Shown piece after piece: positions 7,196-29,514 of a DNA stretch of 64,000 nucleotides. The stretch is from positions 45,324,001 through 45,388,000 of the forward strand of contig NC_087251.1 of assembly GCF_037042905.1 (NCBI RefSeq), given 5' to 3'. A program made the translations under genes and the position numbers. The notes below the pieces were generated by a model. It was not told where the DNA came from. It saw only the letters and a list, made by a program, of their open reading frames with translations, and did no database searches. This DNA comes from Lytechinus pictus. Lineage: Eukaryota. Within the stretch, counting starts at the first letter, position 1. Each line of letters opens with the position of its first letter.

Positions 7196-7292
7196 ATGGA
7201 TATGTTAAGGCGTTTTCTGTTATATTCAGTTGTCATCTTGACATGTTTCTCATACTTCTCGGAAATTTGTCACGCATGGAGAATTTCATCAG
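7196..7292 (+). CDS. Small Arg/Gly-ectopeptide TM protein, paralogue A, exon 1 (signal peptide)
   Basis: ATG 7196 reads MDMLRRFLLYSVVILTCFSYFSEICHAWRISS+G: hydrophobic leader, C-x-A cleavage motif, phase-1 donor G|GTGAGG at 7293. Same layout as exon 1 of paralogues B and C. Confidence 0.75.
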
Positions 7293-7691
7293 GTGAGGCA
7301 TGTGCATTTAATTTGAGTATAAATACAGATGCTCTGAATTCCTGATATGATCCCAAATATCCCACGCAAGACCATTGTCGTTTACTGAGCACAACGTGAC
7401 ATATCTGGGGAAAATGTCTAAAAAGAAGAGAGCAAAGCGAGAGAGCAAAATTTTAGACAAAAATCTAATCTTGTTAGATTTGACAAAAATATTCAGAAAT
7501 CAATAACATTTAGTAGGCCCAACTTTCCTGCCAAATAGGAAAATTTTGGAAGCAAGAACAATACTCGCTATAATACATCAACACTTAAACGTAAAACCGG
7601 ATAAATCTTTGACAGTCTGATTACTTTTCTTCGTTATATAATTTATAATATGTTATGTGCCCTAAATTGCTCCTTCGTGTCCTTCATACAG

Positions 7692-8165
7692 GCTCGTCCA
7701 GACGAACACGTCCACGAACAAGATTCGGCACCGGCGGAGGATTTCGTGGACCATCGGAACCCTCGGGAATATCGTCTATAACATGGACACCAGCCAACAT
7801 CGTCTTCGCCATCCTGCTCATCCTGGTACCAGTGTCATTCGTCGCTTTCCTGAGCGCAGCCTTTTGATGTTTGGCTAGGTTTGATGATGATGGTGGTGTC
7901 GATGTCGATGATGATAAGAGTAAGACAGACCAAGCAAACAAGAAAGGGGGTCGAGAAGAGGATGGCATACTGACAAGAGGTGGTGACGGTAATACCCAGG
8001 GAGGAAGAGCCATGTGGTATTCTGCAGTCCAGTCGGTCTGGGATCGAGGGCCTATATAGTACAGGAGCTACAACTCAACGAGCTTCAGCAGAATCCACAC
8101 CATCGCCGCCATCTTACGAGACAGTCGTAGGCATCGATGTGGAAGGGCAGAACAGAATGAAGTAA
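7692..8165 (+). pseudogene. Paralogue A exon 2: cationic ectopeptide + TM, then an in-frame TGA and a frameshifted PPSY tail (probable pseudogene or truncated 90-aa product)
   Basis: Acceptor ttcatacAG at 7690-7691, phase 1. Reads SSRRTRPRTRFGTGGGFRGPSEPSGISSITWTPANIVFAILLILVPVSFVAFLSAAF, then TGA 7865-7867. The tail ...STPSPPSYETVVGIDVEGQNRMK* (7980-8165) is in a different frame. Confidence 0.65.
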
Positions 8166-9529
8166 CCCAAGACCGGGAGGCTTATGGATTATGTCCACCA
8201 ATCACGCCAATAGAGACTTTACTGAAGACAATATCAGACCCCAAAAAATTCCAGACGAAAATTATTGGAACCGTCTCTTAACCAGTGATTTCTATTATAC
8301 GACACACATCACACATGCATGTAGGCCTACTTCAGTGCACTGGCGTAATGAGCCAAAAAAAATTGAGGGGCTAGATATGGCCTATGGGGAAGTATATATA
8401 TATATATATATATAATATATATATATATATCGCAAATGGGGGGGGGGGGCACAGGGCAGATATGTGCCTCACCCTAAAGAGTACCATTATCAAACGTTTC
8501 TGATTAAAAAACACCGTAATCAGTAACGTCTCATTAGTTGGTTGTCTTTTGTTGGGAATATTGTTTTCCTATATATAGTCAATGCGAACATATATAGGGA
8601 AGTATATATATATATATAATATATATATATATATATCGCAAATGATAGTGATTTTTGTCCAGAACTTTTTGGGAAAAAAAATAAGTCTTCCAACCCAATA
8701 GCTCTCAGGGGAGGGGGGGGGGGGCACAGGGCAGATATGTGCCTCACCCTAAAGAGTACCATTATCAAACGTTTCTGATTAAAAAACACCGTAATCAGTA
8801 ACGTCTCATTAGTTGGTTGTCTTTTGTTGGGAATATTGTTTTCCTATATATAGTCAATGCGAACCTATATAGTTGCTGCACAATCATTGAGTAATTATCA
8901 ATTGCGTTCTAACAGTGGTTTCGTTATAACATACTTAATGATTACTCAATGATTATGTAATCCTGAATTGCAGGGGTGTTATAGATCATGTAGATTGTTT
9001 GAATGATTTGTTATGAATCATGTTGAACGGTTAATTTAACGATTCTTCAGGAAGTTTAACAAGTGTAAAAAAAGAGGATTTTATTAACAGTAAAATCGTA
9101 CTAACGACGCTCTCATTACAACGTATCTGTATGAGAGGATACAAGAGGCCTAGATAATGAGAAAGAAGACAAGAAAGATGAACTGATAGGAGAAAGAAAA
9201 GAGTGAAAAATGTGTCAGATTATATTAGGGTTATGAATTTTCTACGATGCGACATATTTACAGCAAAGACGTCGCTAAATAAGTAATCCTTAATGTAAGA
9301 CCAATCGGTACCTTATTTCCAGTTTATTTGCGAAAGTGAGTTATTTACCTCTGATCTTGAAACGATGACGATGAAGTTGATATTTTCGACTTTCATTAAT
9401 TACCATCTAACTCTTCATCGGTTGTAAAAAAAGAAAAGAAAAAAAAGTGAGAAAATATTGAACCTGTGTTTAATTGGAATAAATTTCATTTTTTGCGCAA
9501 TAAAAATATCATTGCACATTGTTAATGAT

Positions 9530-26624: not shown

Positions 26625-27650
26625 CAACTATGGAAAATTTGCTCACTCGCATTTTGATACTAACTGTAATCCAGTACTACAGTAGTTTACGTCACAACAA
26701 ATCCATTACAATATAACCGTCATCGTGATAGTCCTTCAAGTGAAAGATTGTATATTATGCACGCAGTTATATACCCCTGTACATAATTTATAGCCCGTGA
26801 TGTGATAACTACACACCCGTTGAAAGAGGTTTTGGGGCAACATTCTTTCTTCCACCTACTGAAAATTTGCTCGCTCGCTATGCTCGTTCGCCACAATATC
26901 CGATAATCACACCCCATGGACGACGATTTTGCTCATCATGTCTTCCAAATACTGAAAATTTGCTTGCACTATTCGCTCTCTTTGGCCCGAATTCACAAAG
27001 GTGGATTTTGCAGAATCCCCCTTTGTGAATTCGGGCCTTTGCGACTTAAAAAAAGTTGCCCCATACACCCTAACACTGGCGTAAATCCGGTCCAAGCAGT
27101 GGGGGAGGGGGGGGGGGGGTGAAAGCAATATATTGACCTAAAAATCAAAAATTTTGGGGACACCCCCACACCTAAGGCTAAGTATACGGGGTATATTACA
27201 GTATAAATAATCCTTTTTTAGTTAAAGGTTTCTAAGGATTTTTTTTTTATCAATGGCTATATAATTATGAATTTGTTGTGTTATAAACGACTGAACTACA
27301 GTTAATCAAAATGCGAGCGAGCGAATTTTCAGTAGTTGGAAGACATGGTGACCAAAATCGTCTTCCATGAGTTGTGATTATTGGATAATGTGGCGAATGA
27401 GCATAGCTAGCGAGCAAATTTTCAGTAGGTGGAAGAAAGAATGTTGCCCCAAAACCTCTTTCAACCGGTGTGTAATTATCACATCACGGGCTATAAATTA
27501 TGCACAGGGGTATATAACTGCGTGCATAATACTACCATCTTTCACTTGAAGGACTATCACGATGACGGTTATATTGTAATGGCTTTGTTGTGACGTAAAA
27601 TACTGGATTACAGTTAGTATCAAAATGCGAGTGACTGAGCAAATTTTCCA
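26625..27650. repeat. Long inverted repeat (arms about 26625-26975 and 27310-27650) in the intron of paralogue C
   Basis: The arms are reverse complements. ORFs 26720-26917(-) and 27367-27549(+) are near-identical translations. Confidence 0.9.
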
Positions 27651-29062
27651 GATATAGACTGTTTCATTATCAATTTTTAATACGAGAAGCTGATTTTTTT
27701 TTCTGTTATAGATTATGACAAAATGTTTAGAAAATAATATATTTCACCCCTTTTCTTTTCATTTTCTCCTTTTCTTTCTCGGTTGTAGAACCACCCGTTT
27801 TCTCTATCGCTCTCTTTCTTTCTTCCCTTTCTCAGCCCCCCCCCCCCCCTTTACACAATGCACTCTCTATTTTTTTTTTCCCTCTCCCATTTTCAAAGTT
27901 CATATAGGCATGGATGCCGGGCAATGTTTTTGGTTTATATTTTGACACTGTTTGCACATTATTATCATTTTCATGGATTTGTCCACATATTGAAGGTTAT
28001 TGCTTGATACCTTTTATCGGGCATTGCGTTCCAGCTTACATTCACATAAACTAATTACTATACTTAATTTCAAATTGAAGTAAAATAAAAGCGTTTAAAC
28101 TGAATTGCAGTGAAAGGAATAAATGATGTCAATTGAGATAACTATATGTTTAAGGTATGGTACAAAAGGCACATTTATTAATATTAATAGCCTTACGAGA
28201 GACACTATAGTGCGGTTCAATAATTATGTGGACTTTTGACGATAGTCTACGTTTGTTGGGTGGAACGGACGTGGCCTCACCCTTTCTAGACAACTTCAGG
28301 GGGAGTCTCATGTACCAGTTGTTTTTCTATGTCTATGTAAGTTTGGGGGTCGAGAATTATGAAATTCAAGTTCAAGTTTCCTTTATTTCATTTCGACTCA
28401 ACATATTACACAAATATGAAATAATAAGGCATACAAATCAATACAAAGGGATATACTATGTAAGCAATAAGACCATACAAGGGAAATAAATAAGTTTGAA
28501 GTTTGAAGTTTGAATAGATAAATGTTTTCGGTAAACAATTATGCAATTTTATTCAAATATCAACCAAAAAAGGCAGGCAGATCGTCTTTTCTCCTACTGA
28601 CATCATGTTGGGGTTTTGCTATCATTTTGATATATGATTTTCATAGAAACAACTGCTTCAGAAAACTTATCATGTCATTGCCTTTTGTGAAAAAGCCCCT
28701 TCCATTGTTAGACTCGAAAGGTGTGGCCACTCCCATTCCACCCCCACTTCATTAACGTATAGACTATCGTCACTAGTGGTCGAAAACTCGTGTTCCACGA
28801 AGTCTTAAAAAAGATTGGTCAAAATATAGGCCTAACCAATCTGTTGGTGGACATAATGTGCCCGATCGATATTGTCAATCAATCAAAATTCTGGTACCGC
28901 GGTGGTAGATTCTTTCCAATTTACATGGTAAAATGGTCAAAATGGTTGATTTTGACAATTTTTGTAAGTCGAACATAATTTATTATTCACCAACACATTG
29001 GGTTTTTCCAATCCTTTTTAAGAGTGGATTTCTTATTCTTTCTTCATTTTTTTTGCATACAG

Positions 29063-29514
29063 GATACAGGCGTCCCCGAACCCGCATCAGCGGTGGTTCT
29101 TCCGGTGGTTCATCCGGTCCTATAGAGACCAGTGACATTATATGGATCACATGCTGCATCGGCATACCATTGGGTATGTTATTCGTCTACCTGTGTTATT
29201 ATTGCTTCGTGAAGAAGCCAAAGAAGAAGAAAAAGAGAGAGGAAAGCCAGGCCGTCGTTTCCGCCAATTCCCAAGACACTCAAGCTCCGAGTGATGACCA
29301 CTATCAAGGCATCACCAACCACGCATTGTCGCCCGATGTTCCGCCTGAAGGTTTCTCAACGACAGGACCTGGACAGGACAAGACACCCTTTCAACAGTAT
29401 CCACAGGAAATGGCGCCACCAACCTACAACCATGTCATAGGTTTAGAAGGTATCACCTTCAGGGGTGCAGGGGATATTCATGAAATGTATCGAACGGATC
29501 AAACGAACAAATAG
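29063..29514 (+). CDS. Paralogue C exon 2 (ectopeptide, TM, Lys-rich stop-transfer, PPTY tail); spliced product 182 aa
   Basis: Polypyrimidine tract and tgcatacAG 29061-29062. Reads YRRPRTRISGGSSGGSSGPIETSD-IIWITCCIGIPLGMLFVYLCYYCFV-KKPKKKKKR...EMAPPTYNHV...GITFRGAGDIHEM...*. Confidence 0.88.

What the first reader, a model, noticed from the sequence alone, without database searches (positions are those of the whole stretch)
7196..29514. Hidden tandem family of two-exon membrane-tethered cationic-peptide genes with PPxY tails
Seen: three co-oriented genes with identical architecture that the ORF track does not assemble. Exon 1 is a signal peptide ending C-x-A (CHA, CQA, CLA), followed by a phase-1 intron within a Gly codon and an acceptor ending atacAG in all three. 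Exon 2 encodes an Arg-rich stretch (RRTRPRTRF, RSRSRIRY, RRPRTRI), a Gly/Ser linker, a TM helix starting near a Trp, juxtamembrane Cys and a tail with PPSY/PPTY. B and C tails align: GPGHPKVFVQENPLEMPPPSYFDATKPDGITHRGGGGDTYEM vs GPGQDKTPFQQYPQEMAPPTYNHVIGLEGITFRGAGDIHEM. Established: PPxY binds WW domains of NEDD4-family E3 ligases, and small single-pass PPxY proteins such as Commissureless and PMEPA1 act as trafficking or ubiquitination adaptors. Inference: I recognise no family with this tiny, Cys-free, polycationic ectodomain. It may be an undescribed, fast-diverging family of polyanion-binding (LPS, nucleic acid, sulfated glycan) surface sensors or ubiquitin-ligase adaptors.
Basis: partly seen in the sequence, partly recalled or inferred. 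Interest (0 to 1): 0.85.

Follow-up and report, generated by a model that had tools for sequence, protein, structure and literature searches.

The report
Small sea-urchin PPxY membrane protein genes
Two neighbouring two-exon sea-urchin genes, plus a truncated third copy, encode tiny single-pass membrane proteins with an arginine-rich outer tip and a conserved PPxY tail; public annotation already predicts two of them as uncharacterised proteins, and their function is still untested.

Summary
The observation largely holds. Genes B (10787-10874 + 13313-13716) and C (23380-23476 + 29063-29514) are real paralogues. Each has a signal-peptide exon, a phase-1 intron inside a Gly codon and an ATACAG acceptor. 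The second exon encodes an Arg-rich stretch, a Ser/Gly stalk, a TM helix, juxtamembrane Cys and a tail with an invariant EM-x-PP-x-Y block.

They are not hidden. Proteins with the same exon join are named by their source as uncharacterised LOCs of Lytechinus pictus (B, 99% identical), L. variegatus (B and C) and Strongylocentrotus purpuratus.

Gene A is transcribed and spliced as predicted: contigs from two runs skip its intron. In this assembly, however, a TGA follows its TM helix directly, and its PPSY lies in another frame. A is therefore a tail-less or decaying copy.

The genome holds no further members. No Pfam family reaches its cut-off and no solved structure matches.

The most likely function is inferred, not shown: a type I membrane adaptor whose PPxY tail recruits NEDD4-family ligases, as CYYR1, WBP1L, Comm and Rcr1 do. 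The conserved polybasic N-terminus is unexplained. Interest is modest.

The parts
7196..7292 (+). Gene A exon 1 (coding part): Met, a hydrophobic signal-like segment ending C-H-A, then WRISS and the first base of a Gly codon. Donor CAG|gtgagg.
   Evidence: Sequence. A piece of an X1 contig ends at about 7290 (table 3: places 7252 and 7258 lie 38 and 32 letters from the end).
7293..7691 (+). Gene A intron, phase 1, acceptor atacag.
   Evidence: The X1 contig (816 letters, depth 14.8) and the X2 contig (163 letters, depth 2.5) resume at 7689. Mean depths in the 7100-7766 bin (3.65 and 0.36) equal cover of exon letters only: 14.8 x 165/667 and 2.5 x 97/667.
7692..7867 (+). Gene A exon 2, coding part: SSRRTRPRTRF, a Gly-rich stalk, the TM helix, then the TGA stop at 7865-7867.
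   Evidence: hhalign to the B/C profile gives E 1.1e-6 over 27 columns.
7868..8383 (+). Transcribed remainder of A exon 2, a decayed tail or 3' UTR. A Cys codon follows the stop. A remnant DGILTRGGDG lies in the TM frame at 7961-7990. PPSYETVV at 8106 lies in another frame.
   Evidence: E 0.004. The X1 contig covers 7689-8383. The X1 and X3 contigs have 4 letters fewer within 8009-8305 (table 8).
10787..10874 (+). Gene B exon 1: MRLIRCHACLYLLISIFVLFLVVNCQA|RR plus the first base of a Gly codon. Donor GAG|gtaagc.
   Evidence: The spliced product is identical to P0002 except L10R and H151Q.
10875..13312 (+). Gene B intron, phase 1, acceptor atacag. It holds a 101-bp tandem repeat at 11762-11953.
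13313..13716 (+). Gene B exon 2 coding part (stop included): SRSRSRIRY, a GS stalk, the TM helix, CC, and a tail with EMPPPSY, GITHRGGGG and YEM. AATAAA at 13793.
   Evidence: (99% to L. pictus LOC129265684). An X2 contig lies on 13587-13754.
23380..23476 (+). Gene C exon 1: MDINRVYRLILVLVYFVSLFGICLA|RRGGGGR plus the first base of a Gly codon. Donor GAG|gtgaga.
   Evidence: All 25 of 25 signal-peptide residues match L. variegatus P0001.
23477..29062 (+). Gene C intron, phase 1, acceptor atacag.
   Evidence: The join is the same as in P0001.
29063..29514 (+). Gene C exon 2 coding part (stop included): YRRPRTRIS, a GS stalk, a TM helix with Cys residues, KKPKKKKKRE, and a tail with EMAPPTY, GITFRGAGD and HEMYRTDQTNK.
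   Evidence: (84% to L. variegatus LOC121417953).

Best explanation
SHOWN
- This is a small family, robustly shown only in sea urchins (echinoids), of two-exon genes for 160-185-residue single-pass membrane proteins.
- B and C are intact paralogues.
- A is a third, highly diverged copy. It is still transcribed and spliced, but it stops right after the TM helix, so it is a tail-less variant or a decaying pseudogene.

INFERRED ARCHITECTURE
- A cleaved signal peptide (small residues at -3 and -1: C-x-A).
- A new N-terminus of the form RR-x-R-x-R-x-R-[YFI], displayed on a 15-20-residue Ser/Gly/Thr stalk outside the cell or in the lumen.
- One TM helix with Cys residues in and just after it, which are likely cytosolic palmitoylation sites.
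- A basic stop-transfer stretch.
- A disordered cytosolic tail.

INFERRED MECHANISM
- The invariant tail block [LQK]-E-M-x-P-P-x-Y docks WW domains of NEDD4-family HECT ligases.
- The protein then acts as a membrane adaptor or activator that directs ubiquitin-dependent sorting of itself and of neighbouring membrane proteins.
- This is how other short PY-motif membrane proteins work: CYYR1, WBP1L, Comm/PRRG4 and yeast Rcr1.
- The role of the conserved polybasic tip is open.

MY ODDS
- About 0.9 that the B and C gene models and the family are real.
- About 0.7 that A is truncated or non-functional.
- About 0.4 that the PPxY-ligase adaptor mechanism is right.
For: GENE MODELS
- P0002 (L. pictus LOC129265684, 163 aa) is 99% identical to B.
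- P0003 and P0001 (L. variegatus LOC121417952 and LOC121417953, consecutive numbers) are 86% and 84% identical to B and C.

PARALOGY AND FAMILY SIZE
- In the own genome, B and C hit only each other, and A (as P0004) hits only itself. All other matches have E of 0.02 or worse.
- A profile search over 1.84 billion representatives gave 11 proteins at E <= 1e-3. Three are clear: P0002, P0001 and S. purpuratus LOC105437121 (P0005, E 1.2e-27).

CONSERVATION
- The invariant columns fall in four places: the R-x-R core, the TM helix with Cys73, GPG, and E-M-x-P-P-x-Y...G-I..R-G.

SPLICING OF A
-, tables 2, 3 and 8: contigs from X1 and X2 cover both exons but not the intron.

TOPOLOGY
- Each intact protein has two hydrophobic segments, the first short and ending C-x-A.

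PRECEDENT
- CYYR1 has a signal peptide, a TM helix and PPxY motifs, and binds WWP1, WWP2 and ITCH through those motifs (PMC11399591, passages read).
- WBP1L binds NEDD4-family ligases and regulates CXCR4 (PMC6991692, abstract only).
- Comm, PRRG4 and Rcr1 are short PY-motif TM proteins with very little sequence conservation outside the motifs (PMC5578492, passages read).
- The genome encodes many WW domains, including a four-WW cluster at C2:43.87-43.89 Mb. That this cluster is NEDD4-like is my reading from recall of NEDD4 WW domains.
Against: - No binding, localisation or topology was tested.
- There is a single PPxY per protein, whereas deleting one of the three CYYR1 motifs barely affected binding and pairs of motifs mattered.
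- The ectodomain carries about +5 to +7 charge. That is unusual for a translocated segment and leaves an inverted or hairpin topology possible, which would put the PPxY outside the cytosol.
- No Pfam family of PY adaptors reaches its cut-off. WBP-1 scores 13-14 bits against 28.1. RCR scores at best 26.1 against 27.8. Comm and CYYR1 give no match to A, B or C.
- The membership of A rests on short, low-complexity matches.
- The runs are only guessed to be RNA and come from one study.
- Junction-spanning transcript evidence for B and C was not seen here. It rests on the source's predicted proteins.
Confidence: 0.55

Rival explanations
1. Ectodomain-first reading. The free polybasic N-terminus on a flexible stalk is the working part. 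It acts as a minimal surface receptor or anchor for polyanions such as sulfated glycans, LPS or nucleic acids. The PPxY only drives internalisation or turnover.
For: The R-x-R-x-R core directly after the predicted cleavage site is kept in B, C, A, the two L. variegatus proteins and the S. purpuratus protein, while most of the rest diverges. Ectodomain identity between B and C (14 of 33 columns) is as high as in the distal tail (22 of 55). An SRCR scavenger-type receptor gene lies next door.
Against: No ligand test was done. The L. variegatus copy of C has fewer Arg residues (RRSRTGTS). Arg/Ser-rich low-complexity sequence can persist without a binding role. Being next to an SRCR gene is not evidence of shared function.
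Confidence: 0.15
2. Other topology. The first hydrophobic segment is an uncleaved reverse signal anchor. The Arg-rich loop then sits in the cytosol and the C-terminal tail is lumenal or extracellular, so the PPxY is not a WW ligand.
For: The charge between the two hydrophobic segments is +5 to +6, against +1 to +2 at the N-terminus. By the positive-inside rule (established knowledge) this favours a cytosolic loop. RSRSRSR resembles cytosolic or nuclear SR-type sequence.
Against: The first segment is short and ends with small residues at -3 and -1 in all copies, as in cleaved signal peptides. The stretch after the TM helix is also basic (KKPKKKKKRE in C). Cys residues next to the TM helix and a conserved PPxY fit a cytosolic tail. 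The N-x-T sequon in the B tail is not kept in L. variegatus.
Confidence: 0.1
3. The proteins are clients, not adaptors. They have some other role, for example as accessory subunits or O-glycosylated stalk proteins, and the PPxY merely marks them for NEDD4-dependent down-regulation.
For: A single PY motif is typical of ligase substrates (established knowledge, for example ENaC subunits). CYYR1 itself is ubiquitinated by WWP1 and WWP2.
Against: The ectodomain is too small to suggest another activity. The tail also holds conserved blocks beyond PPxY (GPG, GI..RG, [YH]E[MK]) that suggest further partners.
Confidence: 0.15

Closest known systems
STMC6 / Shisa-like transmembrane adaptors (CYYR1, WBP1, WBP1L/OPAL1, VOPP1, TMEM92)
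   Same: Short type I proteins with a signal peptide, a small ectodomain, one TM helix containing Cys residues, and a proline-containing cytosolic tail whose PPxY binds NEDD4-family WW domains (PMC11399591 passages; PMC6991692 abstract; PMC5578492 passages). The Atlas neighbours of B and of the oyster look-alike are clusters named CYYR1-like, shisa-5-like and WBP1-like, all scoring under 0.9, so these are leads only.
   Different: The mature ectodomain here has no Cys at all and is polybasic, rather than carrying the C*C*CC*CC cysteine pattern. There is one PPxY, not several. The Pfam models WBP-1, CYYR1 and Shisa_N do not match at their cut-offs.
Commissureless / PRRG4
   Same: Short single-pass proteins with an L/PPxY motif that bind Nedd4 and control trafficking of a receptor. 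Sequence is barely conserved outside the motif (PMC5578492).
   Different: There is no Pfam Comm match for A, B or C. The only sub-threshold Comm hit (E 0.002, 18.8 bits against 27) is to the neighbouring SRCR gene's tail exon. There is no Gla domain, and the extended motif GLPSY[DE]x[AV] is not present in B or C.
Yeast Rcr1/Rcr2 (Pfam RCR, PF12273)
   Same: Very short lumenal N-terminus, one TM helix, and a cytosolic tail with PY motifs that bind Rsp5 (PMC5578492). This is the best-scoring Pfam family for B: 26.1 bits for P0003 and 23.2 for P0002.
   Different: It falls below the curated cut-off of 27.8 bits. The match is driven by the TM region. There is no match for C or A. It is a fungal family.
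Source-named predicted proteins LOC129265684 (L. pictus), LOC121417952 and LOC121417953 (L. variegatus), LOC105437121 (S. purpuratus)
   Same: These are the same genes or their orthologues, with the same exon join.
   Different: All are labelled 'uncharacterized protein'. No paper in the searched library mentions these identifiers. No protein corresponding to A was found, and none corresponding to C was found from L. pictus.

Membership tests
STMC6 / WBP-1 (PF11669) | Pfam model at or above its gathering score | tested here: not met
   WBP-1 gives E 0.16 and 13 bits for B exon 2, and E 0.075 and 14.1 bits for P0003, against a cut-off of 28.1. There is no match for C or A.
STMC6 / Shisa-like / CYYR1 | Cys-rich ectodomain with conserved cysteines (C*C*CC*CC pattern, as described in PMC5578492) | tested here: not met
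   The stretch between the predicted cleavage site and the TM helix has no Cys in A, B, C, P0001, P0003 or P0005. The Pfam CYYR1 and Shisa_N models give no hit.
STMC6 / CYYR1 | Cys residues within or next to the TM helix and PPxY in the cytosolic tail | tested here: met
   Cys73 is invariant, with CC or C..C in or after the TM helix. P126, P127 and Y129 are invariant.
Commissureless (PF15957) | Pfam model at or above its gathering score | tested here: not met
   No Comm hit for A, B or C at E <= 1 or E <= 0.1.
RCR (PF12273) | Pfam model at or above its gathering score of 27.8 bits | tested here: not met
   26.1 bits (P0003), 23.2 (P0002), 20 (B exon 2), and none for P0001 or P0004.
WW-domain ligand (functional class, not a family) | PPxY motif located in the cytosol and bound by a WW domain | not testable with these tools
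   The motif is present and conserved. Topology and binding could not be tested.
SRCR receptors (PF00530) | An SRCR domain in the same gene | tested here: not met
   SRCR hits occur only at 39589-39906 and 42851-43297, in the neighbouring gene. The source-named B and C proteins start with their own Met and signal peptide.
Selenoprotein (reading of the TGA in A) | A SECIS element in the 3' UTR | tested here: not met
   No SECIS family among the 15 Rfam matches at E <= 10 in 7100-9000. There are no matches at gathering score anywhere in the window.

The most novel reading that the evidence does not exclude
The family may be old and widespread in marine invertebrates, not confined to echinoids. 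The candidates are the oyster protein P0006 and the unnamed transcript-derived protein P0009. Both show the same order of parts: a signal peptide ending ..VE-x-C-x-A, then R-x-R-x-R-x-RY, a Ser/Gly/Tyr stalk, a TM helix with Cys, and ..APP-x-YN or PPPSY-x-DA-x-K. On this reading the family is a minimal endocytic receptor. A free polybasic N-terminal peptide on a stalk captures polyanionic ligands, and the PPxY tail couples capture to NEDD4-driven internalisation.
Probability: 0.1. Interest if true: 0.65.

Novelty: new variant of a known kind. Interest (0 to 1): 0.3.

Why it matters
If the inferred mechanism is right, this is one more independent example of a recurring design: a very short single-pass membrane protein whose PY motif brings a NEDD4-type ligase to the membrane. 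Here the ectodomain is a Cys-free polybasic tip instead of the usual Cys-rich domain. L. pictus can be raised and edited in the laboratory (recalled, not checked here), so the pair B and C, with a naturally tail-less A, could be tested directly. As it stands, the result is mainly an annotation point. B and C are correct and already predicted. A is an unannotated, truncated relative.

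Tried and rejected
- RNA holders: no RNA holder listed. 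Three runs from one study, only guessed to be RNA, held 5-12% of the sampled words.
The table of joints was cut (56 rows not shown) and did not list 7292/7692. I inferred that junction from tables 2, 3 and 8.
- The TGA in A: whether transcripts keep the TGA at 7865 could not be read. 191 rows of differences were not shown. Only 7823 C>T and 7864 T>C were listed out of the 5 differences in that contig piece.
- Complex prediction: a NEDD4-like WW domain from the own genome with B tail residues 100-163 gave no verdict (score 0.09, mark 0.34; controls were not run; the alignment was not used).
- Protein search with A read through using X at the stop: 16 candidates, none at E <= 10.
- DNA-level similarity among A, B, C and the SRCR tail exon: only short low-complexity matches.
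- PDB profile search: 4 hits at E 0.048-0.87, all driven by TM regions.
- Atlas: all scores under 0.9, so leads only.
- Literature searches for the LOC and XP identifiers: 0 papers.
- Earlier findings of this scan: none.
- Pfam on 11 other ORFs in the window: 0 families.
- ARAGORN: 0 tRNA genes. My impression of a tRNA-derived SINE after gene C is therefore unverified.
- Weak profile hits: those from a breviate, a ciliate, a fungus and a rotifer (P0007, P0010, P0011, P0013; E 1.8e-5 to 5e-4) I treat as compositional or architectural look-alikes, not as relatives.
- Rejected functions: a GAG-attachment (proteoglycan) reading of the SG repeats, because the S. purpuratus protein has S/T-rich sequence with few SG pairs. 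A furin-site reading of the R-x-x-R strings, because cleavage would release only a handful of residues.

Full report
**What the window is.** The translated second exon of gene B is 99% identical to a protein that its source names 'uncharacterized protein LOC129265684 [Lytechinus pictus]' (P0002). The window lies at C7:45324001-45388000 of an 812-Mb, 368-contig genome. It is therefore sea-urchin DNA.

**Check of the observation.**
- I read the three units and spliced them in scripts.
- All three have a GT donor, an acceptor ending ATACAG|G, and a phase-1 intron that splits a Gly codon. Exon 1 ends shortly after C-H-A (A), C-Q-A (B) or C-L-A (C).
- Exon 2 encodes RRTRPRTRF, RSRSRIRY or RRPRTRI, then a Gly/Ser stretch, then a hydrophobic helix that begins near a Trp.
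- Two corrections are needed. The start codon of B is at 10787, because the ATG at 10806 is out of frame.
- In A, the codon after the TM helix is TGA (7865-7867). It is followed by TGT, at the position where B has CC. The PPSY at 8106 lies in a different frame. A as assembled therefore encodes 90 residues with no tail.
- Downstream of the stop, in the TM frame, a remnant DGILTRGGDG (7961-7990) matches the DGITHRGGGGD block of B (BLASTP E 0.004). This suggests a tail that was once coding.

**Are the gene models real?**
- For C, the only database hit is L. variegatus LOC121417953 (P0001, 184 aa; 84% identity over 88% of the query). Its N-terminus is identical to the window's exon 1 over the 25-residue signal peptide, and it has the same join.
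- For B, P0002 (L. pictus) and P0003 (L. variegatus LOC121417952) have the predicted join. The window's product differs from P0002 at two residues.
- For A, no protein was found, but there is transcript-like evidence.
  - One X1 contig of 816 letters lies on 7689-8383. Table 3 lists differences at 7252 and 7258, in one X1 contig of the same depth (14.8), 38 and 32 letters from that piece's end, which puts the end near the donor. I take this to be the same contig.
  - One X2 contig of 163 letters begins 19 letters before 7689.
  - The bin depths of 3.65 and 0.36 for 7100-7766 equal exactly what cover of the exon letters alone would give.
  - The last three letters of exon 1 and of the intron are both CAG, which explains the apparent start at 7689.
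- Limits on the transcript evidence:
  - The runs are only guessed to be RNA and come from one study.
  - The joint itself was not among the rows shown.
  - I did not lay exon 2 of C.
  - The X1 and X3 contigs carry four fewer letters somewhere in 8009-8305. I could not see where, nor whether this brings PPSY into the TM frame.
  - No SECIS-like element is present, so I read the TGA as a stop.

**Family size and range.**
- In the own genome, B and C find only each other (E 1.5e-9 and 3.2e-9, 39-40% identity). A finds only itself. Everything else has E of 0.02 or worse and mostly contains stops.
- A aligns to the B/C profile only over the Arg-rich and Gly-rich stretch (27 columns, E 1.1e-6, probability 91%). 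Its membership rests on that match, the shared gene structure, the GI..RGG remnant and its position 2.6 kb upstream of B.
- A profile of B and C with their L. variegatus counterparts was scored against 1.84 billion representatives. It found 11 proteins at E <= 1e-3.
  - Three are clear: P0002, P0001 and S. purpuratus LOC105437121 (P0005, 1.2e-27).
  - Eight are weak (1.5e-5 to 5e-4). They come from an oyster, a breviate, two unnamed assemblies, a fungus, a ciliate, a clam and a rotifer.
- Most of the weak hits are probably look-alikes of the signal-peptide, Ser-rich, TM and basic pattern. Two deserve a second look.
  - The oyster protein aligns colinearly with the S. purpuratus protein from the signal peptide to APP-x-YN (43 of 163 identical, E 0.002 for that single comparison).
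  - P0009 shares both the TM-CC block and PPPSY-[FY]-DA-[TV]-K with B.
- Between the two Lytechinus species, identity is 143 of 164 columns for B and 159 of 184 for C. The S. purpuratus protein shares 64 of 187 columns with B and 77 of 193 with C.

**What is conserved.** Across B, C and their L. variegatus counterparts, the invariant columns cluster in four places:
- the R-x-R core just after the predicted cleavage site;
- the TM helix and the Cys after it;
- GPG;
- E-M-x-P-P-x-Y followed by G-I-x-x-R-G and E-M.

When A is added, only R32, R34 and C73 stay invariant.

**Comparison with known families.**
- No Pfam model reaches its cut-off for B, C, A, their orthologues or the weak hits. The matches are driven by TM regions. 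The best is RCR at 26.1 bits against a cut-off of 27.8.
- There is no PDB relative.
- Atlas neighbours score under 0.9. They are small single-pass proteins, including mollusc clusters named CYYR1-like, shisa-5-like and WBP1-like.
- The literature I read describes exactly this kind of protein.
  - CYYR1 has a signal peptide, a Cys-rich domain, a TM helix and three PPxY motifs. It binds WWP1, WWP2 and ITCH through the PPxY motifs and belongs to the STMC6 group with WBP1, VOPP1, WBP1L and TMEM92 (PMC11399591, passages).
  - WBP1L binds NEDD4-family ligases and regulates CXCR4 (PMC6991692, abstract).
  - Comm, PRRG4 and yeast Rcr1 are short PY-motif membrane proteins with almost no conservation outside the motifs (PMC5578492, passages).
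- The sea-urchin proteins share the layout, the Cys residues in and after the TM helix, and the PPxY. They lack the defining Cys-rich ectodomain. I therefore do not file them as members.

**Mechanism.**
- I commit to a type I topology with a cytosolic tail whose PPxY recruits NEDD4-family ligases. My odds for that mechanism are about 0.4. Only the sequence features are shown; the rest is inferred.
- The main internal difficulty is the +5 to +6 charge of the stretch between the two hydrophobic segments. It keeps an inverted topology alive as a rival.
- The conserved polybasic tip is the one feature without precedent in the families I compared.

**Context.**
- A separate gene with SRCR exons (39589-39906 and 42851-43297; E 1.9e-10 and 1.8e-15) lies downstream.
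- Downstream of those exons, on the same strand, is an exon with a phase-1 acceptor that encodes a TM helix and an LPPSYESVV tail (46630-46986). I take it to be that gene's last exon; no transcript evidence links them.
- That tail resembles the out-of-frame PPSYETVV of A (9 of 20 identical, E 0.002). It shows no similarity to B or C.

**Verdict.** This is a real, small, fast-evolving gene family. B and C are already present in public annotation as uncharacterised proteins. A is a transcribed, truncated third copy. The function is unknown, and the most likely one is an ordinary one.

Noticed in passing
window 39589-47000 (+): A multi-exon gene with SRCR-domain exons (39589-39906, 42851-43297). 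An exon at 46630-46986, which I take to be its last, has a phase-1 acceptor and encodes a TM helix and a tail with LPPSYESVV. This is a second PPxY-tailed membrane protein in the window. Sub-threshold Pfam hits to Comm (E 0.002) and WBP-1 (E 0.0045) fall on this tail.
   Followed up: partly
window 20017-20247 and 20503-21643: Long trinucleotide arrays lie between genes B and C: (GTA)n with 77 copies and (AGT)n with 381 copies. They account for the GC-skew peak of 0.574 in the 20001-22000 bin.
   Followed up: partly
window 15100-16400 and 21800-23100: Two stretches share an ORF-like sequence (..VKDIFKSILLAKF..VFFMIKVY.YSHNYF.VLRKSFFT.F.KV.GAHS.GN). Both draw contig depths in the thousands, so this is a high-copy interspersed repeat, one copy just upstream of gene C. 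No Pfam match.
   Followed up: partly
window 11762-11953: A 101-bp tandem repeat (1.9 copies) lies inside the intron of gene B, in a region of high contig depth with many rearranged joints.
   Followed up: no
window 46284-46396: A 29-nt inverted repeat, 93% complementary, with arms 55 nt apart, followed by a GAT/GGT-rich microsatellite (46380-46540) just upstream of the TM/tail exon. It is MITE-like.
   Followed up: no
window 29600-29790: Just after the stop of gene C, the sequence looks like part of a tRNA-derived repeat on the minus strand (ggattcgaacccacgaccc). ARAGORN and Rfam find nothing there.
   Followed up: partly
window 58722-59404 (-): Three overlapping open frames share a repeated ~60-residue unit (..C.HPH.RVL.LMQCS.. 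..S.IHTDGP.DE..MLGQ..SI.V.AMSLNLWRT). This is a tandemly repeated sequence of unknown nature. No Pfam match.
   Followed up: partly
G000:C2:43873659-43888812 (-): Four WW-domain exons lie within 15 kb in the own genome. By recall they resemble the WW domains of NEDD4. This is a candidate partner ligase gene for bench tests.
   Followed up: partly
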